Position numbers and translations under genes: made by a program
The notes under the pieces: model-generated
Database searches by the model: none
What the model was told of the DNA's origin: nothing
Seen by the model: only the letters and a program-made list of their open reading frames with translations
Shown here: in pieces, positions 16,508-29,144 of the stretch
Layout: the number at the start of each line of letters is the position of its first letter
Numbering within the stretch: position 1 is the first letter of the stretch
Virus record (IMG/VR): IMGVR_UViG_3300014204_000114
Coordinates: 96,001-160,000 of that record
Length of the DNA stretch: 64,000 bases
DNA from: a virus
Taxonomy: Duplodnaviria > Caudoviricetes
Strand: one strand, 5' to 3'

Positions 16508-17425
16508 TTGCCCTTGTTTATAAATTTACATCTGCATAGTCAGTACTCCGTATTCGATGGCACTATCGAAATAGATAAGCTCGCGGAGTATCTTAAAGAT
16601 AAAGCCCCGGGGTGTGCCATTACAGACCATGGGGTAATGCATGGATGCGTTAAGTTTTATAAGATATTTAAGAAAGCAGGACTGAAACCTATCCTGGGTT
16701 CAGAAATGTACATTACTTCCGTGGATAAAGGAACGCCGTATGATAAGATCCCTAATAAACAATCAGCTAAAGAAGAAAGAGGTATAGCAAAAGAGAGATA
16801 TCATATAATTCTATTAGCAAAGAACAACGAAGGCTATTCAAACTTATGTAGGATAGTTTCGGAGGGACATCTCCGCGGGTATTATTACAAACCAAGAATA
16901 GATCTGGAAGTCCTTAAGAAATATAAAGAAGGGATAGTAGTAACCTCAGCATGTATATTCGGAGAAGTCTCTAACTTACTTATTAAATCAGTAACCGAAC
17001 AAGAGGGAGAGTATTATTTAAAAGCTAAGGAAGTAACCAAGAAGTTCCTGGATATATTCGGGGACGATTATTACTTAGAAGTACAGGATAACGGAGCTAA
17101 GGAGCAATATATAGCCAATCCATTGATCTCTCAATTGGGTGAAGAATTAAGCATACCTATTGTGGCTACTTCGGATTCTCATTATCTTAAAAAAGAAGAT
17201 ATTAAGACGTTCGCATTAGGAATGAAGATGCAAACTTATGATTCCGCGAAGAAGAAATCCTCATACGAAGTAGATATGAATATGAAATTATGGGTCAAGA
17301 CAGAAGAAGATTTTATATCTGAACTGAGTATAAAAAAAGAGTACTGCGATAATACAGAGCTGGTTTTTAATAAATGTAATGTGTCTCTACCGCTAGGGAC
17401 GTTGAAGTTTCCGGAGGTTGCATGA
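16508..17425 (+). CDS. dnaE: DnaE piece 1: stand-alone PHP domain of DNA polymerase III alpha
   Basis: HLHSQYSVFDG, AITDHG, KPILGSE, HIILLAKN..GY.NL, YYKPRID, SACIFGE, ATSDSHY. It ends at the PHP-palm linker. Confidence 0.9.
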   Translation: MPLFINLHLHSQYSVFDGTIEIDKLAEYLKDKAPGCAITDHGVMHGCVKFYKIFKKAGLKPILGSEMYITSVDKGTPYDKIPNKQSAKEERGIAKERYHIILLAKNNEGYSNLCRIVSEGHLRGYYYKPRIDLEVLKKYKEGIVVTSACIFGEVSNLLIKSVTEQEGEYYLKAKEVTKKFLDIFGDDYYLEVQDNGAKEQYIANPLISQLGEELSIPIVATSDSHYLKKEDIKTFALGMKMQTYDSAKKKSSYEVDMNMKLWVKTEEDFISELSIKKEYCDNTELVFNKCNVSLPLGTLKFPEVA

Positions 17426-17910
17426 ATAAAACAATATGGACTCAGCCTGGGAATAAAACTCATATAGGCAAAATCCTTATAAAAGAGCATGAAGAAAATA
17501 ATCGTAAAGCTTATACTATGATAGTTAGAGGAAAATTACTTAAGAAGTGCTGGAGATTTCCATTTACTTATATTCATACAGGTAACTTAGTAGAACCAAT
17601 ACGTTTATACTTTCAAGTTATAGCTAAGGCTCCTAACTCTACTATGATACTAACTCAAAGTATATGTATGCCGGGAGCAGAGGATCTTAGAGAAGAGCAT
17701 AGCTTTAATGATATTATAGATGCTATTAATAAAGGTCTTATACATAAGGTATTTTTAAAAGCTACACTAAATGATCTAGCTACTAGTGCCCTTGAGGTTT
17801 CAGACCCTAATCTGCAGCAGAATAAGAACTATTATCTTCTAGAGGAACTAAAGAAGACAAGCGCTAGTCAATCCGTACTTACTTCTATCGAGGAGAGTGG
17901 GAGAATATGA
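17422..17910 (+). CDS. hypothetical protein lying between dnaE pieces
   Basis: 162 aa ORF with ATGA overlaps at both ends. Confidence 0.6.
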   Translation: MNKTIWTQPGNKTHIGKILIKEHEENNRKAYTMIVRGKLLKKCWRFPFTYIHTGNLVEPIRLYFQVIAKAPNSTMILTQSICMPGAEDLREEHSFNDIIDAINKGLIHKVFLKATLNDLATSALEVSDPNLQQNKNYYLLEELKKTSASQSVLTSIEESGRI

Positions 17911-18095
17911 GTTTTAGAGTAACAGACGAATGTATTAATTGCGGTATGTGCGAGGCTGATTGCCCCGTAGAGGCTATAACTTCTGACGGAGGGAAGTGTA
18001 GTATAGACCCAACCAAATGCGTTGAGTGTAAATATTTCTACGAAGAACCTCAGTGTGTGTCTAATTGTCCTGTAGGAGCCCACGAAAAGGTATGA
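17907..18095 (+). CDS. 2[4Fe-4S] ferredoxin (YfhL-like)
   Basis: CINCGMC...CP and CVEC(8 aa)C...CP. Confidence 0.9.
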
Positions 18096-18871
18096 GCGTA
18101 GAGACATTCAAAAAGAAAGTTGAAGAAGGATTTGCCAAAAAGATCTTAACCAAAGGATTCTCCCGGGAGATTAAAGATAAGTACCGTAAACAGCTTGATT
18201 ATGAGATAGAGATCATAACTAGGATGGGGTTTGCGGATTACTTTTTAATACTTCAAGACATGATCGGCTGGGCTAAAGGTGAGAATATACTTATAGGTCC
18301 TGGAAGAGGATGTTTACATCCAAGCGTATTTATCAGGACTCTCAAAGGGTTAATAAAAATCAAGAATATAAGAGTAGGAGACGAAGTATTATCTGATGAT
18401 AACAAGTATCATAAAGTATTAAAAGTATTCAGTTATGAAGTCGAAGAAGACTTAGTACAGATCAATACTTATAAGAAGATGACCGACCAGTTATTTACTA
18501 AAGATCACAAGATATTATGTATCAAAGACAAGAAAGCCAGAACTTGGATTAAAGCTAAAGATATATCCGCGGGGGACTTCCTGATAAGACCGCCAAGTAC
18601 GCTTCTAAAAGTTCGCTCTACAAGTATACTAGAGGGATATAGAGGTTTAGTCCATGATCTACAAGTAGAAAAGACTGCTAATTTCTGTACCGAAGGATTT
18701 ATAGTACATAACTCTGCTAGCGGAAGTTTAATTACATACGTATTAGGGATAACGACGATTGATCCTTTGAAATACAATTTGATTTTTGAACGTTTTCTTA
18801 ATCCAGGAAGACATTGGAGATATAAGATGGACTTCCCGGAGTTAACTTATCAGCAGTTCAAGGAGATATGA
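18092..18871 (+). CDS. dnaE: DnaE piece 2: N-terminal palm segment with a mini-intein
   Basis: [20 protein letters not shown]|intein|[26 protein letters not shown], then a stop before PDID. The likely start is ATG 18092. Confidence 0.9.
18311..18712 (+). mobile_element. 134 aa mini-intein without endonuclease
   Basis: CLHPSV...TKDHKI...VHDLQV...IVHN|S within the GRG-SA motif. Confidence 0.9.
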
Positions 18872-19102
18872 TGGAGACTGTTGTATACATAGGCCGCGAC
18901 GGAGAATTCGATAAGAATATAAAAAGAATAGCCGATGCTTTAGAAGAACAGAATAGAATAAATATAATGAATTTATTCTTGCGTATGCTAGAACGTACCG
19001 GATGTAATACGTATGACGTTCTTGAAGGTAGAGATAAGACTATAACTGGTCTTCTTAAAAATTTGAGTAAAATATCTGAAAAACTAAAAGAAGAATTAGA
19101 AC

Positions 19103-19131
19103 TTGACATGAGACAAGAATAAGAATATTAT
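19103..19131 (+). promoter_or_regulatory. sigma70 promoter for the tRNA cluster
   Basis: TTGACA-17-TATTAT about 40 nt upstream of the first tRNA. Confidence 0.75.
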
Positions 19132-19169
19132 AAGACATAAGGAGAAATCCTTAATTAAATATTTTTAAT

Positions 19170-19258
19170 GCCGAGATATCCAAGCTGGCTAAAGGAATCA
19201 GACTGTAGATCTGACAGGCTTTGTCCTTTCGGGGATTCAAATTCTCCTCTCGGCACCA
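19170..19258 (+). tRNA. tRNA-Tyr(GTA)
   Basis: Acceptor gccgaga/tctcggc, anticodon arm tcaga-ctGTAga-tctga, long variable arm, TTCAAAT loop, encoded ACCA. Confidence 0.9.
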
Positions 19259-19269
19259 GAAATTATTGA

Positions 19270-19345
19270 GCCTACGTATCTCAACTGATAGAGAGCCGCA
19301 CCTGTACTGCGGATGTTAGGGGTTTGAGACCTCTCGTAGGCTCCA
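19270..19345 (+). tRNA. tRNA-Thr(TGT), non-canonical
   Basis: Acceptor gcctacg/cgtaggc + TCCA, anticodon arm ccgca-ccTGTac-tgcgg. It has C33, no D-loop GG and T-loop TTTGAGA. Confidence 0.7.
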
Positions 19346-19349
19346 GTAT

Positions 19350-19422
19350 TCCCGGGTCGCTCAATTGGTAGGGCACGCGGTTACTCATCGCGAGGTTGTA
19401 GGTTCAAATCCTGCCCCGGGAG
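19350..19422 (+). tRNA. tRNA with anomalous anticodon loop (ACT), identity undetermined
   Basis: Acceptor tcccggg/cccggga + G73, canonical D and T arms, anticodon arm cgcgg-ttACTca-tcgcg, short variable loop, no encoded CCA. Confidence 0.7.
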
Positions 19423-19454
19423 CACTGCCAATTTTATCTGTAAAGGAAAAGAAG

Positions 19455-19766
19455 ATGCACACTACGATAGTAAAAATGAAAGATGGAAGAGAATTTAGAG
19501 GAGCCTTATGGACCTTTAGGCCTCTTGAAGGATGGTTCAATGTCACAGAAGAGGGTTCTCCCGAAAAAATATACTTCAAAGATTGCGAAAGCGTTATTAC
19601 TTTAGGGCAAAGGATTCATCCCGGAGTTACAGAAAATCAGGACGAAATAGAACGAGCAAAAGAAAACTTGCCTCAATTGGTACGCGACGAGCAATACGAT
19701 AAAGGGATTACAGATCCTAAGAAATTAGAAGAGAGGGCCAAAGAAATAATCAAGGAGCTGTACTAA
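19455..19766 (+). CDS. hypothetical protein
   Basis: Likely start is ATG 19455 (SD aagga). The longer ORF call overlaps the tRNA. Confidence 0.6.
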   Translation: MHTTIVKMKDGREFRGALWTFRPLEGWFNVTEEGSPEKIYFKDCESVITLGQRIHPGVTENQDEIERAKENLPQLVRDEQYDKGITDPKKLEERAKEIIKELY

Positions 19767-20064
19767 AATGCAAAACATATATTTAATAGGCAAGAGTTTT
19801 CAAGGAGTTAAGTCTATAGACGAATTTGACTATAAGATAATCAATAAGTCCGGGAGACATGCTATTAAAGGTAAGGCTAAGATAACGAAATATACCGGAG
19901 AATACGAAGAGCCCATAGAAGAAGGAATGGAATCCAACATATCTATATGGACGAAGAATAATAAGGAAGTCACAGTCACGACTTTTTACGGCGCAGAAAT
20001 AACAAAAGTTAAGGGGAATGTATTATGGTTCGACATAAGAGCTATGATACCAATACAAGAAAGA

Positions 20065-20093
20065 TTGACTTGTTAAAGTAAAGAAGTTATACT
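20065..20093 (+). promoter_or_regulatory. sigma70 promoter; predicted TSS about 20100 coincides with an ATG
   Basis: TTGACT-17-TATACT. Confidence 0.75.
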
Positions 20094-20099
20094 ACAGAT

Positions 20100-20141
20100 A
20101 TGAAGATAGAATTCAGCTAGATTCAACGTGCCCCGCCTTGA
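20100..20141 (+). CDS. putative leaderless leader peptide MKIEFS-(TAG)-IQRAPP-(TGA)
   Basis: atg aag ata gaa ttc agc TAG att caa cgt gcc ccg cct TGA. The RAPP arrest motif is reached only by amber readthrough. Confidence 0.6.
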
Positions 20142-20198
20142 TTCTCCTTGGCATGGAATTGGTTTATAGTAATGATTTGAACAATAAAATAAGGAGAA
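20142..20198 (+). promoter_or_regulatory. anti-SD/SD pair (putative translational attenuator)
   Basis: ttctcctt (20142-20149) is the exact reverse complement of aaggagaa (20191-20198), the SD for ATG 20204. Confidence 0.6.
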
Positions 20199-20203
20199 AA
20201 CAT

Positions 20204-20590
20204 ATGCATCCATATACAGAAAAGAAATTAGAACTTAAAGAAATAGCCAAGAAAATAGTAGTCCTAAAATTCCAACGTAAACCTAACAATAATACTTCAG
20301 GCAAAACACAAAGCGAAATTATTGACACTCTCTTCGACTCTAAACTCGAATACAGGATGAAGCATATTATTTACTGTTTGGCCAGAGGTCGTACGATGGA
20401 ACAGATAGAGAATAAAGTTAGCAAATCTAATAAGTTAGATAAGTATAAGTTATCACATATTGATGGGGCCTTCAAAGTTCTAAAGAAAGAAGCAGCCGAA
20501 TACGAAACTAAGTTGTTAGCAGAACGAAAAGATAAGAAAGAGAAAAGGAATGAAACTGTACGTAGTAACGAGGCGAGACTTACTGCCTAG
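20204..20590 (+). CDS. hypothetical basic helical phage protein
   Basis: SD aaggag + ATG 20204, motif EYRMKHIIYCLARGRTMEQIE, ends in TAG and overlaps the next gene. Confidence 0.7.
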   Translation: MHPYTEKKLELKEIAKKIVVLKFQRKPNNNTSGKTQSEIIDTLFDSKLEYRMKHIIYCLARGRTMEQIENKVSKSNKLDKYKLSHIDGAFKVLKKEAAEYETKLLAERKDKKEKRNETVRSNEARLTA

Positions 20591-20834
20591 TCAACAGGTG
20601 GTTCAAGTCGCTCACGTAGTAGCTAAATATATGCTAGAGAATCCAGGAGAGTGGAATAACGAGACTCTCGTGATTTATGGTGTAAGTAATGAGGTTGAAT
20701 TAGAATCTATATTAAATTCTCTTAAGAAGAGATATGTAAATCATTCCGAATCCAGAGAGCCTGACATGGGCTTGTCTCTAACGGGGATAGCAAGTACGAG
20801 CAGAAATGTTTTTAATAAGTTAAAACTGCTCTAG
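20550..20834 (+). CDS. peptidyl-tRNA hydrolase 2 (Pth2)-like protein
   Basis: KLYVVTRRDL.PSQQVVQVAH...W.NETLV...V.NE.EL...REPD....LTGIA, the Pth2-fold signature. Confidence 0.75.
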   Translation: MKLYVVTRRDLLPSQQVVQVAHVVAKYMLENPGEWNNETLVIYGVSNEVELESILNSLKKRYVNHSESREPDMGLSLTGIASTSRNVFNKLKLL

Positions 20835-20903
20835 TCGCTCAAATAGATAGGGCAAACGTCTCTAAAACGTAGTATGTTGGTTAGAGTCCAACCTATGGCA
20901 CCA
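20828..20903 (+). tRNA. amber suppressor-type tRNA (anticodon CTA)
   Basis: Acceptor gctctag/ctatggc (one mismatch) + ACCA, D stem gctc/gggc, anticodon arm aacgt-ctCTAaa-acgta, T arm gttgg-ttagagt-ccaac. Confidence 0.75.
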
Positions 20904-20924
20904 AATTTTATAAGGAGAAATAAA

Positions 20925-21119
20925 TTGGAAGAACAAAAGAAAGAAACAACTGAAGAATCAAAAGGGTTTAAATCTCTTATCGGGTTACTACTGACCGTAG
21001 CTGTATTTATATCTCTGATATACTTGCCTACAGCAGTAGTAAAGATTGTAGATTTTCAGAAACATAATTCGCCGACTGAAGTTACGATGACTATCGGAGT
21101 AACAGAAACGACAAAGTAA
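20925..21119 (+). CDS. small membrane protein
   Basis: SD aaggag + TTG, one TM helix LIGLLLTVAVFISLIYL. Confidence 0.6.
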   Translation: MEEQKKETTEESKGFKSLIGLLLTVAVFISLIYLPTAVVKIVDFQKHNSPTEVTMTIGVTETTK

Positions 21120-21130
21120 AAGGAGTTAAT

Positions 21131-21751
21131 ATGCCCAGAGGAAAAGTAAAAGAAAAAGTATTAAAGCTGTCAGATTTTACAGAATTTGGTATGCCCGATC
21201 CTATTTATAGAGCTAAGTTTATCGAGGGGGGCATAGAGATAGACTGGGGTATGCTCGGCGATTTACATGAACAGTACCGGGTATTCTTCTATACTAATAA
21301 TAAGGATACGAATCTACTTTTATTCTCCTTAAAAGGGAATAAAAAGGGTCAAGTGCAGGGATTTGAGATAGAAGCAGCTTCAGGTAAGGCTCCATATTAT
21401 ATCCATTGCGATTCATTTTTTAGAGTTGCAAAGTTCCCAATAGAAAAATATAAAAACAAATACTACAGAGTTTCAAATATTAAGCTTGACGGCGTTAGCT
21501 TATTTAAGATCGATTTGTCTATCGAAGTGACCGAAGCAGGATGGGAAGCATCCATAGTAAAAGGTCCTATTCGTAAATCACGTAAAGGAATAAAGCTTGG
21601 ACCCAGAAAGAAACCCGAGATTGAAGCTGTTCAGGAAAAGCCTCAAGAAAAGCCTGCTTATAGGAAATTAGATCTTGGAGATCAAAGACCTGCGGTGCCG
21701 CAATTCTCTAAAGCAATGGGCGAAAAAGTATTAAAATCATTCACAGAGTGA
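21131..21751 (+). CDS. hypothetical protein
   Basis: 206 aa, SD aggag. Confidence 0.65.
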   Translation: MPRGKVKEKVLKLSDFTEFGMPDPIYRAKFIEGGIEIDWGMLGDLHEQYRVFFYTNNKDTNLLLFSLKGNKKGQVQGFEIEAASGKAPYYIHCDSFFRVAKFPIEKYKNKYYRVSNIKLDGVSLFKIDLSIEVTEAGWEASIVKGPIRKSRKGIKLGPRKKPEIEAVQEKPQEKPAYRKLDLGDQRPAVPQFSKAMGEKVLKSFTE

Positions 21752-22485
21752 GGGATAATATGCCAGTAGAAAAAGTAAAATTAGAAGACATAAGAGAAAA
21801 GTATATCTCAGGCATGAATATGCGAGAAATAGGGAGTTACTACGGCGTGACATATCAGGCCGTTGCGGACAGATTAAAAAGGGCAGGAGTCCCACGAAGA
21901 GGAAGAGGAGCTCCTGTGTCCAAAGAAAGGATTAAAGCTGAGAGTCTGCTGAATGATGACCTTTTAAGGTACTTAAAGCATGACCTTAAGCTTACAAATA
22001 AACAAATCGCCGAAAGAATAAAAGTACCCGCTCAAACAGTTGGAAGTATAGCAGTAAAAAGAGGCATCCTTTATGAGCCTTCTAAAGAAGATAAGTACCA
22101 CATAGCCAGACCTAATGGGGTTAAACAAATATTTAATACTCCCGCTAAACAGGAAAAGCTTAAAGCGGACATTAAGAAGTACTATTACGAATTAGGTTTG
22201 TCTGTAAACGATACTGCAGAGAAAGTAGGCGTAAGCTGGCGGACAGTACTTCGCTGGATGAATTACTGGAACATGGAAAGAAGAAGCCGGAATATGATCT
22301 TCCCTTATCTAGATAAGGCTCAGAAGCAAGAGCTTAAAGCCAATATTAAAAGGATGTATCTGAAAGAAAGAATGACTACTTTTGAAGTGGCTGAAAAATT
22401 AAATACTACTGCTAGTACTATCGGCAGATGGATGGATATATTCGGAATTAAAAAGAGAGGTAACAGAAAGAGAGCTATCAAGTGA
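21748..22485 (+). CDS. multi-HTH DNA-binding protein
   Basis: Four repeats of the type Y...GxS...IA...GVS..TV.RW....I.RR. Confidence 0.7.
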   Translation: MRDNMPVEKVKLEDIREKYISGMNMREIGSYYGVTYQAVADRLKRAGVPRRGRGAPVSKERIKAESLLNDDLLRYLKHDLKLTNKQIAERIKVPAQTVGSIAVKRGILYEPSKEDKYHIARPNGVKQIFNTPAKQEKLKADIKKYYYELGLSVNDTAEKVGVSWRTVLRWMNYWNMERRSRNMIFPYLDKAQKQELKANIKRMYLKERMTTFEVAEKLNTTASTIGRWMDIFGIKKRGNRKRAIK

Positions 22486-23828: not shown

Positions 23829-26663
23829 ATGCACAGCTACTTCTCAGAAAAAGCTAGTAAGATTATAGGATGGATAGACTTTGATAGATTAATTGAGCTG
23901 GAGAATCAAGATGAGTTCTATATAGAACTGGATAACTATGATTTCCACGATAAGTTCTCCGGAGAAAGATTTCTAGATTATTTAATCTATCTTAAAGTCA
24001 AGGATATTAAAGTCTCCAATCCTAATAATTCTTGTGTAGCATGGGTTACAGGCGTTACTGACGATAAGCCTGTAGCTTTGCCTGAAAGGGAGATTGGGTC
24101 CTTGCCTGACGTAGATATAGACGTATCGAAGGATCACAGGCAGGATGTTATAGATTATCTTGTATCCAAATATGGCAAGGATAATGTAGCGCCTATAGCC
24201 ACCTTCAATTCATTTGCCCTCAAATCAGCTATAAGGGCCGTAGCGAGGACTTTGGAATACCCCTATGAGATAGGCGATAAGCTATCAAAGATGTCTCCTG
24301 ACCCCGTGCAGGGCAAAAATCTGACATTTTTAGAAGCTCTTGAGGAAGTTCCTGAGCTTAAACGGATATACGAAGAAGGTGGAGAGGGGTTTAATGGCGA
24401 CGCCCAAAAAATATTAAAGGAAGTAAAGCTAATAGAAGGTATTATATCTTCTGTTGGTACGCATGCTTCCGGAGTAGTTATTTCTCCGTTTACATTAACC
24501 GATCTATTACCTCTACAGCTTAATAATAAAGATATGACTGTCGTCCAGTACGATATGGAGGATGTAGAGGCTTTAGGATTAGTAAAGTTTGATATATTGG
24601 GGATTAAAACTTTAACTACGTTAAAGATGTGCGCGGATTTTATAAAAGAAAGATTCAATATCACTATAGATTTTGAGAATATACCTTTGGATGATCCTAA
24701 TGTTTACAAGATGATATGCGAGGGATTCCTCTTAGGAATATTCCAGCTTGAAACTTCTTCCGGCATGAGACAAATAGTAAAACAGATACAGCCTAAATGC
24801 ATAGAAGATCTATCAGATATATTAGCTATATATAGACCTGGTCCTCTGGGTAGTTCCGAGCTTAAGAATTATTTAGAATGTAAGACTACAGGCAAGGAAC
24901 CAAAGTATGCCCACCCTGCATTAGAACCTATCCTTAAACCGACTTCCGGATTGATGCTTTATCAAGAGCAAATTATGAGAATAGCCAGGGATATATGTGG
25001 GTACACAATGGTCGAGGGCGATTCTCTGAGAAAATGTGTGTCTGGAGATACTTTATTCTGGACTCAAGATGGCTATAAACACATAAAAGATATGGTGCGT
25101 AATAGAAAAAGAAATACTGCTCGTACTTTAACGAATTATGAAATCGTGGATAATAAAATTGATAATGCTTTTAAGTCGGGGATAAAGGACACTATAAAAA
25201 TAATTACAGAAAGCAGATCTGAGATAATATGTACTCCGGATCATGAGATATTTACTAATGAAGGATATATTCAAGCCAAAGACTTAACTAGAGCTCATTA
25301 TTTATTACACGATATTACTGAAAAGTATGGCACGTACGACATAGACGAAGATTTATTGTTTTTAATAGCGGCTCTCGTTACAGAAGGACATACTGGTAAA
25401 AACGCTTGGTATTTTTGTAATAAAGATAAAATTTACATAGATAAATTCATAGATGCATTTTACAATATTTTCAAATACATTCCTAAGACACATATAGGCG
25501 GAAATGATGTTATTTATGTTCAAATAAAAGCTGACGCCAGTAAATATTTAACAGATAATTTCCCATCAATAGTCGGCACTAGCGCTTTTAAGTCTTTACC
25601 GTTTGATTTTCTTAATTTAGTACAAGAGAAACATCTCAAATTGCTAAGCTGGATGATAGATTTTGATGGATGGGCAGATGATAGACACATAGCTTACTGT
25701 ACTAAATCAATTAAACTAGCAGCACAAGTTAAATTACTATTTGAAAATATAGGTTGCGGGGCTTATATACTTAATAAAAAAGTTAAAGGATACGGTATAT
25801 TTTATAATGTGCATATTGGAGATAGACAAGATATCTTAAGAGCTAAAAATAAATTAATATATTCAGAGAAAATATCCTCTAAAAACTTTTCTACTACCAG
25901 AGACGCTAAAAGAAATTATGTATCTAAGTATACTATACCTTCTAATATATACAAACCTATTATTGATTCTATAATAAAACAGTCTGGATATAGCAGAAAT
26001 GAATTAGTAGGAAAAAATATATCTGGTTCTTATTTTTCCGGGCCATTAGGTATAGATAGACTGTCTGATATTTTGTCGGTTTGCGGGCGCTCGAAAGAAT
26101 TAGAATTTTATTTAAATAGAGAGGTTTATTGGGATAAAATTCGATCGATAACTCCAAATGGGGAGATCGATGTGTATGACTTTAGTATGACAGAAAGATC
26201 TAGTCCTCGTGCATTTGCTAATAACATACTTATACATAATTGCGTAGGAAAGAAAAAAGCAGAGGAGTTATTAAAACACGAGGAAAAGTTCGTATCTGGC
26301 GGAATTAGATTGGGTTTTCCAGAGAAAATGCTCAGAGATTTATTTAACAATATCAAGAGCTTTGGGGCGTATGGATTCAATAAATGTCTAACTGGGGACA
26401 CTAAAGTAAAAACTCCAGACGGTATAAAGGCTATCGAAAGCTTAAAAGTCCCATGTACTTTGTTATCGATGGACGCTAATAACAATATTATCGAAAATGA
26501 GTGTGTCGAAAAAATAGATTGCGGAGAACAAGACGTATATGAAATTGAATTTAGCGATAGCTGTATCATAAAATGTACCCTAGATCATAAGTTCATGTGT
26601 GGTGATAATAAAATGCATAGCGTGAGGGATATTATAAAAGATGACTTGACAGTTCTAGCTTAG
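23829..26663 (+). CDS. dnaE: DnaE piece 3: catalytic palm/thumb/fingers with an internal intein and a C-terminal split IntN
   Basis: SLPDVDID, GTHASGVVI, GLVKFDILG, GIFQLE, YRPGPL, LYQEQIM, LRK|intein|CVGKKK, AYGFNK|IntN. Confidence 0.95.
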   Translation: MHSYFSEKASKIIGWIDFDRLIELENQDEFYIELDNYDFHDKFSGERFLDYLIYLKVKDIKVSNPNNSCVAWVTGVTDDKPVALPEREIGSLPDVDIDVSKDHRQDVIDYLVSKYGKDNVAPIATFNSFALKSAIRAVARTLEYPYEIGDKLSKMSPDPVQGKNLTFLEALEEVPELKRIYEEGGEGFNGDAQKILKEVKLIEGIISSVGTHASGVVISPFTLTDLLPLQLNNKDMTVVQYDMEDVEALGLVKFDILGIKTLTTLKMCADFIKERFNITIDFENIPLDDPNVYKMICEGFLLGIFQLETSSGMRQIVKQIQPKCIEDLSDILAIYRPGPLGSSELKNYLECKTTGKEPKYAHPALEPILKPTSGLMLYQEQIMRIARDICGYTMVEGDSLRKCVSGDTLFWTQDGYKHIKDMVRNRKRNTARTLTNYEIVDNKIDNAFKSGIKDTIKIITESRSEIICTPDHEIFTNEGYIQAKDLTRAHYLLHDITEKYGTYDIDEDLLFLIAALVTEGHTGKNAWYFCNKDKIYIDKFIDAFYNIFKYIPKTHIGGNDVIYVQIKADASKYLTDNFPSIVGTSAFKSLPFDFLNLVQEKHLKLLSWMIDFDGWADDRHIAYCTKSIKLAAQVKLLFENIGCGAYILNKKVKGYGIFYNVHIGDRQDILRAKNKLIYSEKISSKNFSTTRDAKRNYVSKYTIPSNIYKPIIDSIIKQSGYSRNELVGKNISGSYFSGPLGIDRLSDILSVCGRSKELEFYLNREVYWDKIRSITPNGEIDVYDFSMTERSSPRAFANNILIHNCVGKKKAEELLKHEEKFVSGGIRLGFPEKMLRDLFNNIKSFGAYGFNKCLTGDTKVKTPDGIKAIESLKVPCTLLSMDANNNIIENECVEKIDCGEQDVYEIEFSDSCIIKCTLDHKFMCGDNKMHSVRDIIKDDLTVLA
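25035..26240 (+). mobile_element. 402 aa intein with a LAGLIDADG endonuclease
   Basis: CVSGDT...TPDHEI...LIAALVTEG...WMIDFDG...VYDFSM...LIHN|C. Confidence 0.9.
26385..26660 (+). mobile_element. split intein N-half (92 aa)
   Basis: CLTGDTKV...GEQDVYEIEF...CTLDHKFM, then a stop. Confidence 0.9.
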
Positions 26664-26674
26664 GAGTCTATAAT
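26646..26674 (+). promoter_or_regulatory. perfect sigma70 promoter overlapping the IntN 3' end, driving the endonuclease and the IntC-DnaE gene
   Basis: TTGACA-17-TATAAT followed by SD aggagg. Confidence 0.8.
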
Positions 26675-26702
26675 CATATAAGAGGCATAGGAGGCCTTTT
26701 AT

Positions 26703-27596
26703 ATGGAACAAACGAACACAATGAGACGTAGGCGTAATTTTTCTCCACCTAACAAAACAATTACAGACGACGATAAAAGATTTATGGTAGAACAGTACGT
26801 AACACATAAAAAATCAGCTAACGAAATATTAAAGATGTTTAACGGAAAGTTTAAAACTACTAAAACTGTTTATGACGTTCTAAAACAATTCGATATTAAA
26901 GGAAGAGAATTACAAGACTATATTAATATAGACCACCTATTCTTTTCAGAAATAAACACTTCAGCCAAAGCCTACATATTAGGCTTATTTATAACAGATG
27001 GTTGGGTAATATCTGATAAAGGGGCGTTCGGGATCCAATTAACAATGGAAGACGAGAATATAATCAAAATGATTAGAAAAGAACTTAAATCAGATACGAG
27101 TTTAGTAACATGTTATAAAAAACCATTCGAAGGTGCTAACGGAAATATATATCAACCTAAAGATATGATAAGATTCTTCGCCCATTCTAAGCAAATTGTT
27201 AACGATCTGTCTAGGTACGGCGTAATCAACAATAAGAGCGACAAGACGTTACTGCCTCTGATTGGCCCAAATTTTATGCCACATATGTTAAGAGGTATTT
27301 TAGACGGAGACGGCAGCGTGTATATACATGCTCAATCGAATAATCTATGTATTAGATTTATAGGAACGAGAGTCCTAGTAGCCCAAATCTCAATGTTTTT
27401 AGCCTTAGCATTAGGCGTAAAATATAACTATCCTAATATACGAACTAAACAAAAAGAGACATATATGGATATTTGTTATGTAGATTGGGAGAGTAAAGAA
27501 GAGGTCGAAAAAATAATAAGATATATATATAAGGACTCGGACGAAGACCATAGGATAAGAAGAAAATATGAGAAAGCTAAAGATTATATCATATAA
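26703..27596 (+). CDS. free-standing LAGLIDADG homing endonuclease between the split intein halves
   Basis: AYILGLFITDG and MLRGILDGDG motifs with an N-terminal HTH-like segment. Confidence 0.9.
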   Translation: MEQTNTMRRRRNFSPPNKTITDDDKRFMVEQYVTHKKSANEILKMFNGKFKTTKTVYDVLKQFDIKGRELQDYINIDHLFFSEINTSAKAYILGLFITDGWVISDKGAFGIQLTMEDENIIKMIRKELKSDTSLVTCYKKPFEGANGNIYQPKDMIRFFAHSKQIVNDLSRYGVINNKSDKTLLPLIGPNFMPHMLRGILDGDGSVYIHAQSNNLCIRFIGTRVLVAQISMFLALALGVKYNYPNIRTKQKETYMDICYVDWESKEEVEKIIRYIYKDSDEDHRIRRKYEKAKDYII

Positions 27597-28932
27597 AAAG
27601 GTAGGTACAAAAAAGACTTACAATCTTCGTATGATTAAGAAGCCACATAACTATATATTGGCTAATGGATTAGTTTCTGCTAACTCGCATAGCATTTCAT
27701 ATAGTTATATAACATACTTCACGTCTTACATGAAGTGTTATTACCCTACTGATTTTATGGCATCGTTATTATCTAATGAAGATAATCCTGATATGTTTAA
27801 GCAGTATCTTAGAGAATGTTCTGATTTAGGGTTAAAGATAATGCCGCCGGATATAAATGAATCCGATAGAGGGTTTAGACCTGCAGGGGATGATTCGAAT
27901 CCGGTTATCTATTTTGGTTTAAATGGTATTACAGGTATAGGATCTAAAGTCGTAGATGAGATATTGTTAGCCAGAGAATCCGGTCCTTTTATGAATATTA
28001 AAGATTTTGTTTCAAGAGTTAATACCAGAGTAGTTAATAAAGGCAAGAGAGAACTACTAGCCAAAATAGGCTGCTTTGATAAGTTTAATGTTAATAGAAG
28101 GGCTGTTGCTGAACAGCTAGAGGACTTAGTTGATTATGCGGCAAGAACAAGAACTTATAATGCCGCGCTGGATAAGTATCATGCTTATGTAGACAAGAGA
28201 AGAGAAGAAGGGAAAGATATAACAAAGGTCCCGCCTGCTAAACCTGTGTTCGAAAAGACTTATTCTCATGTGGAAAATTATATAGAGAAAGAGCTATGTG
28301 ATTTTGAAAGAGATTTCTTGGGGGCATACGTAACCAATCACCCGTTGATTAAGATAAGACAATTCAAGGGAGACTCTCAATATGTCATTTCGGACTTAAA
28401 GGATGACTATTATGTGGACCAGCCGATTCATCTCTACTGTATGGTAGAAGACGCCCGAAAGATAAAGACTAAGAATGGAACCAACATGGCGTTCCTGAAA
28501 ATCATAGACGAGTTTGATAGTATAGAATGCGTAGTGTTCCCTAAAGTGTATGAAGTATCTAAAAGTGTATTGGTAGATCCATATCTATCCGGCGCGTATT
28601 TTATCGAGGGAATGCTTCGACCTAACTATCAAGACAGATCTGTAATGAATGTTATAGCTAATAAGATAATGCCTATAGAAAGCAGTGAAGGATTAAGGCA
28701 TAACTATAAATTAATTCTTAAGCCTAATAAGACATTCCATAAGCTTCTTAAGATGAAACCTCTTCTAAAACGCCACAGAGCTTATGAGAATAACCTTAAT
28801 ATGATATCTCTTAAGATAGGCGACATCGAATTTGAATTCCGTAACTCAAGACAGTTCGAAGAAACAGGAAAGATCAGAGCTCTATTAAGAGAGAACGGCA
28901 TTGATGGAAATCTAGTATTGGAAAAACGTTAG
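27568..28932 (+). CDS. dnaE: DnaE piece 4: IntC (39 aa) fused to the C-terminal fingers/HhH/OB domains
   Basis: MRKLKII...HNYILANGLVSAN|SHSISYS..YMKCYYP, PPDINES, GLNGITGIG, ERDFLGAYVTNHP, TKNGTNMAF. Confidence 0.93.
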   Translation: MRKLKIISYKKVGTKKTYNLRMIKKPHNYILANGLVSANSHSISYSYITYFTSYMKCYYPTDFMASLLSNEDNPDMFKQYLRECSDLGLKIMPPDINESDRGFRPAGDDSNPVIYFGLNGITGIGSKVVDEILLARESGPFMNIKDFVSRVNTRVVNKGKRELLAKIGCFDKFNVNRRAVAEQLEDLVDYAARTRTYNAALDKYHAYVDKRREEGKDITKVPPAKPVFEKTYSHVENYIEKELCDFERDFLGAYVTNHPLIKIRQFKGDSQYVISDLKDDYYVDQPIHLYCMVEDARKIKTKNGTNMAFLKIIDEFDSIECVVFPKVYEVSKSVLVDPYLSGAYFIEGMLRPNYQDRSVMNVIANKIMPIESSEGLRHNYKLILKPNKTFHKLLKMKPLLKRHRAYENNLNMISLKIGDIEFEFRNSRQFEETGKIRALLRENGIDGNLVLEKR

Positions 28933-29144
28933 AATAATCAACTAGATTTTATTTATTTTATTTTTCGGAGATAAGATGGAGATCCAGACAAAGGTCCTAT
29001 ACCTGATAGGATTCATTTTATTATTATCTTTACTAATAGGAATGGCAGTTCTTTGCGTTCTGGTTAAGATAATAATCTATTTGGTAAGCAATTTTGGAAT
29101 TTTTTTGTTGATTTTGTTTTTACTGTATTGTATAATACGGGATA

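What the first reader, a model, noticed from the sequence alone, without database searches (positions are those of the whole stretch)
20065..20206. Candidate amber-readthrough sensor: leaderless uORF with in-frame TAG followed by RAPP-stop and an anti-SD
Seen in sequence: the TTGACT-17-TATACT promoter puts the predicted TSS on the A of ATG 20100. The frame reads MKIEFS-TAG-IQRAPP-TGA. Immediately after, ttctcctt (20142-49) is the exact 8-nt complement of the next gene's SD aaggagaa (20191-98). It sits in the loop of a cgtgcc/ggcatg + gattc/gaatt stem. Established: RAPP/RAGP is the core of the ApdA, ApdP and SecM-type arrest peptides, and Pro before a stop slows termination. Inference: a ribosome terminating at the TAG never reaches the anti-SD. 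One reading through the TAG would stall on RAPP, cover the anti-SD and switch on the downstream genes. This would be a translational switch reporting amber suppression or RF1 failure, and it controls a Pth2-like gene. I know of no described system like it. Caveat: 13 codons is short for a RAPP arrest peptide.
Basis: partly seen in the sequence, partly recalled or inferred. Interest (0 to 1): 0.95.

Follow-up and report, generated by a model that had tools for sequence, protein, structure and literature searches.

The report
Amber-gated ribosome-stalling phage leader
A large phage that uses the normal genetic code starts a small operon with a 13-codon leader whose ribosome-stalling Arg-Ala-Pro-Pro end can be reached only by reading through a UAG stop; the same operon ends in the phage's own UAG-reading tRNA, and about a hundred related phage loci keep this design, so it looks like a natural, undescribed switch that reports whether stop-codon readthrough is working.

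Summary
The promoter-like TTGACT-17-TATACT, ATG 20100, MKIEFS-TAG-IQRAPP-TGA, the anti-SD at 20142-20151 and the SD at 20191-98 are all present.

Taken alone, the window is weak evidence. The folds are no better than shuffles, and 8-nt anti-SD matches occur upstream of about 2% of this genome's genes.

Comparative data decide it:
- The leader is conserved: start, 1-8 codons, TAG, 2-13 codons, [K/R](A/G)PP, usually a stop, then an anti-SD. It occurs in 39 of 44 loci (IMG/VR, Logan and the window) and 56 of 63 further metagenome loci. Upstream of other genes the rate is 1.5%.
- The interrupting stop is TAG, essentially never TAA or TGA.
- Pro and Arg codons vary synonymously, so the peptide after the TAG is under selection.
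- The anti-SD co-varies with each locus's SD.
- The operon is leader, unknown helical gene X, a Pth2-fold gene Y and a tRNA(CUA).
- In three divergent lineages whose tRNA is UUA, the gate codon is TAA.
- Six Y genes carry an in-frame TAG.

I found no paper describing this. Other agents of this scan reported the same design on other genomes.

The parts
20065..20093 (+). Sigma-70-like promoter TTGACT-17-TATACT. It would place the transcript start at or next to A of ATG 20100, giving a leaderless leader ORF.
   Evidence: 10/12 match; such sites are not enriched in the region. No SD precedes ATG 20100. The two other SD-less leaders, L039 and L041, also have a -10 box ending 6-7 nt before their ATG. 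The transcript start has not been mapped.
20100..20141 (+). Leader ORF MKIEFS-TAG-IQRAPP-TGA. The gate codon TAG is at 20118-20120, the RAPP codons at 20127-20138 and the terminal TGA at 20139-20141.
   Evidence: The same architecture occurs in 39/44 and 56/63 related loci, against 1.5% upstream of other genes.
20142..20151 (+). Anti-SD ttctccttgg, immediately after the leader's stop. It lies inside the footprint of a ribosome held at RAP/P or at PP-TGA, but outside that of a ribosome terminating at TAG 20118.
   Evidence: it pairs with 20190-20198. The family-wide cognate duplex averages -13.9 kcal/mol against -8.07 for permuted pairings, with 0 of 5000 permutations as low.
20190..20198 (+). 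Shine-Dalgarno of gene X (uAAGGAGAA), 5 nt before ATG 20204.
   Evidence: It is unpaired when 20100-20151 is left out of the fold (third fold).
20204..20590 (+). Gene X, 128 aa. It is all-helical, of unknown function, and ends in TAG. It belongs to a family with the motif EFRHKHIaYCLlRGRTxEQIE.
   Evidence: No Pfam or PHROG family matches. 538 cluster representatives match at E<=1e-3. AlphaFold2 gives pLDDT 85.8 with no fold match.
20550..20834 (+). Gene Y, 94 aa, with a Pth2 (peptidyl-tRNA hydrolase 2) fold. It overlaps the end of X by 41 nt, and its TAG stop lies inside the tRNA gene.
   Evidence: Matches phrog_3668. The A4 profile hits PDB Pth2 at E 2.7e-5. PF01981 is hit by 24/35 members. 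AlphaFold2 gives pLDDT 96.9, and the top Foldseek hits are Pth2 structures (2zv3, TM 0.82). Present in 41/44 loci.
20828..20903 (+). tRNA with anticodon CUA (amber suppressor). It has a class I body and an encoded CCA end, and is the last element of the operon.
   Evidence: ARAGORN; Rfam RF00005 at 42.5 bits against a gathering score of 29; cloverleaf drawn. A same-strand tRNA(CUA) lies next to X/Y in 38 of 40 IMG/VR loci.

Best explanation
The element is a translational switch gated by stop-codon readthrough, and it heads an operon of leader, gene X, a Pth2-fold gene Y and tRNA(CUA).

Off state: ribosomes that start at ATG 20100 meet TAG 20118 after six codons. If RF1 wins, they terminate about 22 nt before the anti-SD. 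The anti-SD (20142-20151) stays paired with the SD of gene X (20190-20198), and X and the overlapping Y are not translated.

On state: if the phage's tRNA(CUA) decodes the TAG, the ribosome continues into IQRAPP-TGA. It is held there in one of two ways. [quoted passage not shown] The other is slow termination after Pro-Pro. In either position its footprint reaches to about 20148-20151 and covers the anti-SD. The SD is freed and X/Y are translated.

The switch therefore makes X and Y in proportion to amber-suppression activity, meaning suppressor tRNA against RF1.

Shown by comparison: the conserved architecture, selection on the peptide after the TAG, co-variation of anti-SD and SD, the link to a suppressor tRNA, and the match of gate codon to anticodon.

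Inferred: the stall itself, the direction of regulation (on when suppression works), leaderless initiation in this window, and what X and Y do. My best guess is that they handle peptidyl-tRNA and ribosome by-products of suppression, or act in feedback on it.
For: 1. The sequence is as described, and the minimum-energy fold pairs the anti-SD with the SD.

2. Conservation. Start-x(0-9)-TAG-x(<=25)-PP is found in 39/44 non-redundant loci. With TAA as the interrupting stop it is 1/44, and with TGA 0/44. It occurs in 11/729 upstreams of other ORFs and in 20/2200 shuffles. It is found again in 55 of 63 new metagenome loci, plus L111 after inspection.

3. Codon-level selection after the TAG. Both Pro codons keep CC and vary at the third base (Pro1 CCT 18, CCA 14, CCG 6, CCC 1). 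The preceding residue is K (AAA 10, AAG 9) or R, drawn from both the AGA and the CGN codon families. Where no stop follows PP, the motif is R[AGDS]PP. L001 and L033 differ after the TAG by two synonymous changes and two replacements.

4. The base after the TAG is A in 25 loci and G in 14, never C or T. By my recall of the Bossi and Miller context rules, this favours suppression.

5. Anti-SD. The cognate duplex averages -13.9 kcal/mol, against about -6.5 for shuffles, and 36/39 loci have z < -1.64. Permuted pairings average -8.07 (sd 0.37), and 0 of 5000 permutations reach the observed value. The distance from PP to the X start codon is 50-72 nt in most loci (85 nt in L067).

6. A tRNA(CUA) lies on the same strand next to X/Y in 38/40 IMG/VR loci and in this window.

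7. Gate codon matches anticodon. About 67 loci pair CUA with a TAG gate. Three divergent lineages with a tRNA(UUA) have a TAA gate: Lak phages L086/L098/L099, LR745208.1 (L093) and L148. No locus with CUA has a TAA or TGA gate. For a 67/0/0/3 table, my arithmetic gives 1/54,740.

8. TAG is really decoded in these phages. Six Y genes carry an in-frame TAG with homology continuing past it.

9. In this 188-kb genome the leader is the only evident in-frame TAG target.

10. Literature. C-terminal Pro-Pro stalls termination in all contexts tested (PMC3834316). [quoted passage not shown] RAPP and RGPP give the most robust arrest and resist EF-P (PMC12992588).
Against: - There are no experimental data of any kind.
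- The host is unknown.
- In this window the leader has no SD, so its translation depends on an unmapped promoter and on leaderless initiation. The promoter match is not statistically special.
- The folds of the window are no more stable than shuffles. An 8-nt anti-SD match occurs upstream of 1.9% of the genome's genes.
- A 13-residue nascent chain has not been shown to arrest. Published RAPP peptides are longer and their N-terminal parts modulate stalling (PMC10951233).
- In some loci the PP codons themselves form part of the anti-SD (CCUCC), so part of their conservation could be at the RNA level.
- 5/44 loci of the first set lack the PP form (three of them keep a variant TAG-gated leader, two have none), and 6/63 of the second set have no leader.
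- In the relative G001 the two CUA tRNAs lie 3.7 kb away on the opposite strand.
- One short contig (L103) has a TAG gate with only a tRNA(UCA) in view.
- The amino acid carried by the tRNA, and whether a host synthetase charges it, are unknown.
- The function of X is unknown.
Confidence: 0.78

Rival explanations
1. RF1 sensor rather than tRNA sensor. The architecture and stall mechanism are the same, but the variable that changes during infection is host RF1 activity (depletion, inhibition or titration). The tRNA(CUA) would be a constant co-factor.
For: Readthrough at a UAG always reflects competition between tRNA and RF1, which is established knowledge. In G001 the CUA tRNAs are not in the operon. 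24 metagenome loci show no suppressor in the fetched stretch, although most of those contigs are short.
Against: The tRNA(CUA) sits at the 3' end of the same operon in 38/40 loci. The gate codon switches to TAA where the tRNA is UUA. RF1 reads both UAG and UAA, so an RF1 sensor would not need to track the anticodon. No RF1-directed gene was recognised in the window.
Confidence: 0.1
2. Mini-ORF plus RNA hairpin. TAG is the true stop of a 2-7 codon mini-ORF and the sequence after it is never translated. The conserved CCNCCN-stop-anti-SD would then be only an RNA element that hides the SD, opened by some other factor.
For: In several loci CCUCCU overlaps the anti-SD. Most pre-TAG ORFs are only 2 codons long. 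The window's folds pair the anti-SD with the SD without needing any peptide.
Against: The third bases of both Pro codons vary freely while CC is invariant, and CCA CCA cannot pair with GGAGG. K/R is kept through unrelated codons. ATG, TAG, PP and the stop share one frame in 39/44 loci, against 0-1/44 for TAA or TGA. R[AGDS]PP appears exactly where no stop follows PP. The gate codon tracks the tRNA anticodon. Y genes carry in-frame TAGs.
Confidence: 0.05
3. Termination followed by reinitiation. Ribosomes terminate at TAG and restart on the adjacent codon, which is ATN or GTN in 31 of 39 loci. They would then translate the PP peptide without any suppressor.
For: The codon after the TAG is ATT 9, GTT 8, ATA 6, GTA 3, ATG 2, ATC 2 and GTG 1.
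Against: Only 3 of the 39 are canonical start codons. GTT, GTA, AAC, AGT and GAT are not start codons. This model gives no reason for TAG specificity, for linkage to tRNA(CUA) or for the TAA/UUA co-variation. Leaders with two TAGs (L048, L053, L074 and the large MT-TAG-xGFT-TAG-xRGPP subfamily) would need two reinitiations. A purine after the stop is the classical good context for suppression (own recall).
Confidence: 0.04
4. Chance arrangement in this window, with no function.
For: The window-only statistics are weak.
Against: The arrangement is conserved in about 95 independent loci spanning 26-60% GC and many habitats.
Confidence: 0.01

Closest known systems
RAPP/RGPP-type regulatory arrest peptides (ApdA, ApdP, ApcA; SecM with RAG/P; Streptomyces RAPP/RGPP uORFs) - PMC7897499, PMC10951233, PMC12992588
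   Same: A C-terminal R-A/G-P-P motif in a small upstream ORF. The stalled ribosome is thought to free the SD of the next gene. The family here uses RAPP, RGPP and RxPP, the most robust motifs reported.
   Different: Here the motif lies behind an in-frame stop codon, so it is reached only by readthrough. The nascent chain is 7-23 residues with no signal or membrane segment. The downstream genes are not Sec/YidC. Many members use K-P-P-stop (a termination pause) instead of RxPP. The context is a phage operon with a suppressor tRNA.
Pro-Pro-stop termination pausing (E. coli YbeL-PP; Hayes, Bose and Sauer 2002, as cited in PMC3834316)
   Same: Pro-Pro directly before a stop codon, as in 32 of 39 leaders and in this window (PP-TGA). 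It is reported to arrest ribosomes in all contexts tested.
   Different: It is known as a quality-control problem (A-site mRNA cleavage, ssrA tagging), not as a regulatory device. Here it is placed so that the paused ribosome covers an anti-SD.
RF2 (prfB) autoregulation through an in-frame UGA and +1 frameshift
   Same: An in-frame stop codon early in a reading frame acts as a sensor of termination efficiency at that codon.
   Different: prfB senses RF2 and responds by frameshifting within the same gene. Here UAG (or UAA) is gated by a dedicated suppressor tRNA, and the output is ribosome stalling that unmasks another gene's SD.
PepNL of E. coli (PMC11890864)
   Same: A very short (14 aa) leader in which stop-codon readthrough by a tRNA (Trp-tRNA on UGA) changes whether and where the ribosome stalls.
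   Different: In PepNL the stall is at the stop itself and readthrough relieves it, so the tRNA is an arrest inhibitor. Here readthrough is required to reach the stall, so the tRNA is an arrest inducer, and the tRNA is a true suppressor encoded in the same operon.
Synthetic unnatural-amino-acid leader switches (Liu, Qi, Yanofsky and Arkin 2011, as described in PMC6412442)
   Same: A TAG placed in a leader peptide makes expression of downstream genes depend on an amber suppressor tRNA.
   Different: That system is engineered, acts through transcription attenuation or Rho, and uses an orthogonal synthetase/tRNA pair. This one is natural, appears to act on translation through an anti-SD, and is widespread in phages.
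Stop-codon recoding in phages with suppressor tRNAs (bioRxiv 10.1101/2021.08.26.457843; Lak and crAss-like phages)
   Same: A phage-encoded tRNA(CUA), with the idea that readthrough times gene expression.
   Different: This genome is not recoded. TAG ends 42 of 270 called genes, and no other in-frame TAG target was found. The TAG sits in a regulatory leader. The XacN1 authors could not find targets for its CUA tRNAs (PMC5852040).

Membership tests
RAPP-like ribosome arrest peptides | R-A/G-P-P (or RAPG/RAGP) core at the C-terminal end of a small ORF | tested here: met
   RAPP codons at 20127-20138. Relatives have RAPP, RGPP, R[DS]PP or [KR]PP.
RAPP-like ribosome arrest peptides | [quoted passage not shown] | not testable with these tools
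   Needs toeprinting, peptidyl-tRNA gels or cryo-EM. The mechanism is taken from PMC10951233.
RAPP-like ribosome arrest peptides | Stall site placed so that the ribosome disrupts a structure hiding the downstream SD | tested here: met
   The anti-SD starts directly after the leader's stop, and the pairing co-varies across loci.
RAPP-like ribosome arrest peptides | Longer N-terminal 'regulator module' (often a secretion or membrane segment), with downstream Sec/YidC-type genes | tested here: not met
   Only 13 codons, with 7-23 in the family. The downstream genes are X (unknown) and a Pth2-fold protein. The element works like an arrest leader but is not a member of the monitoring-substrate families.
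PTH2 peptidyl-tRNA hydrolase (PF01981) - gene Y | Pth2 alpha/beta fold | tested here: met
   AlphaFold2 pLDDT 96.9. Foldseek top hits are 2zv3, 3erj, 1wn2, 1q7s and 1xty, with E down to 2.4e-6 and TM 0.82.
PTH2 peptidyl-tRNA hydrolase (PF01981) - gene Y | Sequence score above Pfam's gathering threshold | tested here: not met
   The window protein scores 14.6 bits against a cut-off of 23. 24/35 relatives hit at E<0.1, best 3.8e-6. The profile against PDB Pth2 gives E 2.7e-5. Y is a remote, shortened relative (94 aa against about 115).
PTH2 peptidyl-tRNA hydrolase (PF01981) - gene Y | Catalytic residues and hydrolase activity on peptidyl-tRNA | tested here: inconclusive
   Conserved in the family are Q19 and H22 (invariant), E70 and T78 (nearly invariant), and a consensus motif ExEPDxxxxxTAxA. 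The Lys of the canonical GK motif (own recall) appears to be replaced by SQQ. Activity has not been assayed.
Amber suppressor tRNA | Complete cloverleaf scoring as a tRNA, with anticodon CUA | tested here: met
   ARAGORN. Rfam RF00005 at 42.5 bits against a gathering score of 29. The family consensus anticodon loop is CUCUAAA.
Amber suppressor tRNA | Aminoacylated and able to decode UAG in vivo | tested here: inconclusive
   Indirect evidence only: six Y homologs have an in-frame TAG with homology continuing past it. The amino-acid identity was not resolved.
TAG-recoded phage genome (code 15-like) | Many genes interrupted by in-frame TAG, with ORFs restored when TAG is read as sense | tested here: not met
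   ORF coverage gains with TAG read as sense equal those of the TGA-as-sense control, in the genome and in 40 loci. TAG ends 42/270 genes. No split genes were found.

The most novel reading that the evidence does not exclude
The cassette is a self-contained switch of genetic-code state with positive feedback. The tRNA(CUA) lies at the 3' end of the transcript, directly behind Y. Translation of X-Y is permitted only by readthrough of the leader. That translation would protect the transcript from polarity (Rho or decay) and so raise output of the suppressor tRNA itself. This would flip the infected cell into an amber-suppressing state at a set time. X (unknown) and the Pth2-fold Y would act as effectors that either boost suppression or clear the peptidyl-tRNA and stalled ribosomes it creates. 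If so, the 'orphan' suppressor tRNAs of standard-code jumbo phages would be a regulated weapon or timer, and a plausible evolutionary stepping stone to full stop-codon recoding.
Probability: 0.25. Interest if true: 0.95.

Novelty: new variant of a known kind. Interest (0 to 1): 0.88.

Why it matters
1. It would be the first natural regulatory leader whose input is the activity of a suppressor tRNA, that is, the state of the genetic code in the cell. Until now this logic existed only as a synthetic-biology design.

2. It gives a concrete, conserved target to the 'orphan' amber suppressor tRNAs of large standard-code phages. The XacN1 authors explicitly could not find targets for that phage's CUA tRNAs (PMC5852040).

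3. The leaders are a natural library of very short (7-23 residue) stalling peptides: KPP-stop, RPP-stop, RAPP and RGPP. They could define the minimal requirements for Pro-Pro arrest.

4. It links suppression to a Pth2-fold hydrolase and to an unknown, widespread phage protein family (538 cluster representatives). This points to a new translation-control or rescue module.

5. It may show an intermediate stage on the route to stop-codon reassignment in phages. Lak phages carry a TAA/UUA version.

6. It could serve as a compact, portable sensor part for genetic-code-expansion work.

Tried and rejected
- DNA similarity search of 19000-22000 against GenBank phages found no match.
- An exact DNA pattern for the leader's end (CCNCCNTRATTCTYCTTGG) in IMG/VR gave only the known relative and 17 chance hits.
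- A word-indexed protein search with gene X found only itself. The full HMMER search was needed.
- TAG recoding of the genome or of related loci was rejected.
- Rfam holds nothing but tRNAs in the window.
- Gene X fold search found no significant match, only generic helical hairpins. Its function is left open.
- Assigning an amino-acid identity to the tRNA(CUA) failed. The nearest phage tRNAs are inconsistent (Arg 13, Lys 10, Phe 5 and others) and the discriminator base varies.
- Promoter enrichment upstream of the leaders is only modest: 13/39 against an 11% background.
- A scan of bacterial and archaeal species genomes found only 3 contigs from metagenome-assembled genomes, so the module is essentially phage-borne.
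The X alignment was used instead.
No read mapping was done.
- One apparent TGA-gated leader with a CUA tRNA (L111) proved on inspection to be a false pattern hit next to a genuine double-TAG RGPP leader.
- My early note that G001's CUA tRNAs lie upstream on the same strand was wrong. They are 3.7 kb downstream on the opposite strand.
Full report
**1. What is in the window**

- TTGACT is at 20065-70, followed by a 17-nt spacer and TATACT at 20088-93, then six bases and ATG 20100.
- The frame reads MKIEFS-TAG(20118)-IQRAPP-TGA(20139).
- ttctccttgg (20142-51) follows directly. It is complementary to the SD uaaggagaa (20190-98) of a 128-aa gene starting at 20204, which I call X.
- X overlaps a 94-aa gene, 20550-20834, which I call Y.

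The window comes from a single 187.8-kb virus contig of 39% GC.

**2. The window alone is weak evidence**

- The promoter-like site scores 10/12, but such sites are not enriched in the region.
- The minimum-energy fold of 20100-20215 does pair the anti-SD with the SD. The fold is nevertheless no more stable than shuffles (z = +0.89).
- Across the genome, 5 of 269 genes (1.9%) have a perfect SD complement of 8 nt or more in the -100..-30 region. This gene's duplex energy ranks 34th of 269.
- Removing 20100-20151 from the fold leaves the SD unpaired.

**3. The genome is not recoded**

- ORF coverage with TAG read as sense rises no more than with TGA read as sense.
- Called genes end in TAA 149 times, TGA 79 times and TAG 42 times. 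X and Y themselves end in TAG.
- Candidate TAG-split ORFs resolve into adjacent genes with their own SD and ATG.
- No long ORF begins with M-x(1-8)-TAG.
- The leader's TAG is therefore the only evident in-frame target for the tRNA(CUA) in this genome.

**4. Relatives**

Gene X has no Pfam or PHROG family. A profile search of 1.84 billion cluster representatives found 538 at E<=1e-3. The family motif is EFRHKHIaYCLlRGRTxEQIE.

The first relative examined was L001, from a 169-kb IMG/VR contig. It already showed SD-ATG MTYH-TAG-VSLDKPP-TAA, then ttcttcttgg, facing the SD ccaaggagaa. Two Logan contigs gave MTYH-TAG-VEIDKPP-TAA and ML-TAG-IAKLKPP-TAA. In the second, the anti-SD GTCTC(a)CTTTT matches that locus's own SD AAAAGGAGAC.

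A family alignment then retrieved 48 IMG/VR loci and 80 metagenome loci.

**5. Tabulation of the leaders**

In 44 non-redundant loci, counts of the pattern start-x(0-9)-STOP-x(<=25)-PP were as follows.

| Test set | Count |
|---|---|
| TAG as the interrupting stop | 39 of 44 |
| TAA as the interrupting stop | 1 of 44 |
| TGA as the interrupting stop | 0 of 44 |
| Upstream of other ORFs in the same loci (TAG) | 11 of 729 |
| Shuffled upstream regions (TAG) | 20 of 2200 |

Other features of the 39 leaders:
- The base after the TAG is A in 25 and G in 14.
- Both Pro codons keep CC and vary at the third base.
- The residue before PP is Lys (AAA 10, AAG 9) or Arg (AGA, CGA, CGC, CGT), or the motif is R-[AGDS]-P-P.
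- The codon after PP is TAA in 20, TGA in 10, TAG in 2 and a sense codon in 7. The sense-codon cases carry R-x-PP.
- The nascent chain at PP is 7-23 residues long, most often 8-12. Most leaders have only two codons before the TAG, and four have two TAGs.

Of the five loci without the PP form:
- Three have variant TAG-gated leaders: L069 MT-TAG-SARGP-stop, L049 ...TAG-NNRSP-stop, and L046.
- L042 lacks the leader, Y and the tRNA together.
- L054 lacks only the leader.

In 63 further non-redundant metagenome loci, 55 have a TAG-gated leader, and L111 adds one more after inspection. One has a TAA-gated leader and six have none. A large subfamily reads MT-TAG-xGFT-TAG-xRGPPYYIV.

**6. The SD mask**

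- The segment from PP to +27 nt pairs with the last 22 nt before X at a mean of -13.9 kcal/mol. Shuffles give about -6.5, and 36/39 loci have z < -1.64.
- Permuting which leader goes with which SD gives -8.07 +/- 0.37. None of 5000 permutations reaches the observed mean. The pairing therefore co-varies locus by locus.
- The distance from PP to the X start codon is 50-72 nt in most loci (85 nt in L067).

Geometry in the window, using the roughly +15-nt leading edge of a ribosome measured from the P-site codon (own knowledge of toeprint spacing):
- A ribosome terminating at TAG 20118 reaches about 20130 and leaves the anti-SD free.
- A ribosome with CCG 20133 or CCT 20136 in the P site reaches about 20148-20151 and covers it.

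**7. The operon**

- An HMM finds Y in 41 of 44 loci. It usually overlaps the end of X and ends a few bases before a tRNA.
- ARAGORN finds a tRNA(CUA) on the same strand in 38 of 40 IMG/VR loci.
- In G001, two CUA tRNAs lie 3.7 kb away on the other strand.
- Y is a remote, shortened Pth2. The profile against PDB Pth2 gives E 2.7e-5. PF01981 is hit by 24/35 members, though the window protein is below threshold. AlphaFold2 gives pLDDT 96.9, with Pth2 structures as top fold hits at TM 0.82.
- X is predicted to be all-helical (pLDDT 85.8) with no fold match.
- Six Y homologs (L049, L057, L058, L064, L067, L074) carry an in-frame TAG with homology continuing after it. This is direct comparative evidence that UAG is decoded in these phages.
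- The 10-kb neighbourhoods are not recoded.

**8. Gate codon and anticodon co-vary**

- Lak phages (L086, L098, L099) have a tRNA with anticodon UUA next to X-like and Y genes. Their leader reads MKLQ[HF]W-TAA-VT..RG(S)P.
- The huge phage LR745208.1 (L093) has M(GAM)HH-TAA-LPYCRGPP... and a tRNA(UUA) directly after Y.
- The metagenome locus L148 has MKKR-TAA-IAHTDRGPP-TAA, an 10-of-11 anti-SD match, and a tRNA(UUA).
- About 67 loci pair CUA with TAG, and none pairs CUA with TAA or TGA.
- For a 67/0/0/3 table the exact probability is 1/54,740 (my arithmetic). The loci are related, so this overstates independence. Still, there are three very divergent switches.
- L103 has a TAG gate with only a tRNA(UCA) in view. 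Its contig ends before the usual site of the CUA tRNA.

**9. Mechanism and literature**

- A C-terminal Pro-Pro interferes with termination and arrests ribosomes 'in all genetic contexts tested' (PMC3834316, citing Hayes et al. 2002).
- RAPP and RGPP are the most robust motifs and are refractory to EF-P (PMC12992588).
- The window's RAPP-TGA combines both kinds of pause.
- The nearest natural precedent for readthrough-dependent stalling is PepNL, where Trp-tRNA reading UGA relieves arrest (PMC11890864). That is the opposite logic.
- The nearest design is synthetic: a TAG placed in the tna or trp leaders (PMC6412442).
- Seven full-text searches found no description of a natural amber-gated leader or of this cassette.
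- The XacN1 paper states that targets of its two CUA tRNAs could not be found (PMC5852040).

**10. Variants in cultured phages**

- XacN1 ORF364 appears to start at an upstream ATG as MK-TAG-TIKAMKL..., an HD plus Pth2 fusion.
- Stenotrophomonas phage RAS14 has MK-TAG-TLNK....
- Tenacibaculum phage pT24 has MK-TAG-ITKN... at the start of its Pth2-like gene.
- These are direct amber gates without an arrest leader. They offer laboratory systems.

**11. Earlier notes of this scan**

I looked at these after reaching my own reading. Other first readers and follow-up agents reported the same design on this genome and on at least 18 others, and likewise found no publication. These are unchecked AI notes and I do not count them as evidence. 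My counts above are my own.

**12. Verdict**

- It works like a ribosome-arrest leader that unmasks an SD, with a new kind of gate: a stop codon read by the operon's own suppressor tRNA.
- It fails the membership features of the Sec/YidC monitoring substrates.
- Still open are what X and Y do, which amino acid the tRNA carries, whether initiation here is leaderless, and what the suppressor is ultimately for.

Noticed in passing
window 19350-19423: A well-scoring tRNA (Rfam 51 bits) that ARAGORN reads as anticodon ACT on a short-variable-arm body. This is unusual for a Ser tRNA. It is one of three tRNAs (Tyr-GTA, Thr-TGT, 'Ser'-ACT) just upstream of the cassette.
   Followed up: no
window 16508-18871 and 23829-28974: DNA polymerase III alpha (DnaE) appears split into several collinear ORFs. 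They are interspersed with unrelated genes and intein-like or homing-endonuclease-like inserts (ORF list).
   Followed up: no
L049, L057, L058, L064, L067, L074 (Y genes): Six Pth2-fold Y homologs carry an in-frame TAG at different positions, with homology continuing past it. In these phages Y is gated a second time by amber readthrough.
   Followed up: partly
L084 940- (Xanthomonas phage XacN1 ORF364); L083 1940- (Stenotrophomonas phage RAS14); L085 1447- (Tenacibaculum phage pT24): In these cultured phages the Pth2-like or HD-Pth2 gene seems to begin with ATG AAG TAG (MK-amber) upstream of the annotated start. This is a direct amber gate without an arrest leader, and a likely target for XacN1's 'orphan' CUA tRNAs.
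   Followed up: partly
L086 841-990, L098/L099 1734-2000 (Prevotella Lak phages); L093 1990-2980; L148 430-1240: Versions of the cassette with a tRNA of anticodon UUA and a TAA-gated RGP/RGPP leader. Lak phages are otherwise reported to be TAG-recoded (own recall).
   Followed up: partly
L037 (leader ~4903) and L053: Tandem modules within one leader: MT-TAG-IQIPP-TAG-IRGPP-stop and ML-TAG-SNFKPP-TAG-VFKPP-stop. That is two successive gate-and-stall units.
   Followed up: no
L051 leader: After MK-TAG-IQLLRGPP the frame continues without a stop into gene X. Readthrough would therefore make an N-terminally extended X rather than a separate peptide.
   Followed up: no
L082 3899-3972: ARAGORN reports a tRNA with a four-base anticodon (cttg). 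It is a possible quadruplet-decoding or frameshift-suppressor tRNA, in a phage that also has the amber cassette.
   Followed up: no
L069 8842-9186: A phage-encoded tmRNA (tag peptide ADENLALAA) lies about 3.8 kb downstream of the amber cassette.
   Followed up: no
L103 330-560: A tRNA with anticodon UCA (opal suppressor) and a tRNA(CAU) sit directly upstream of a TAG-gated leader (MKKFG-TAG-VVNRARPPP...). The contig ends before the usual site of the CUA tRNA.
   Followed up: no
window 20588-20590 and 20832-20834: Both X and Y end in TAG in this window, so an active suppressor would also extend them (by 11 and 3 codons). Across relatives, X stops are TAA 24, TGA 16 and TAG 4, and Y stops are TAA 31, TAG 6 and TGA 4. 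This is not a family rule.
   Followed up: partly
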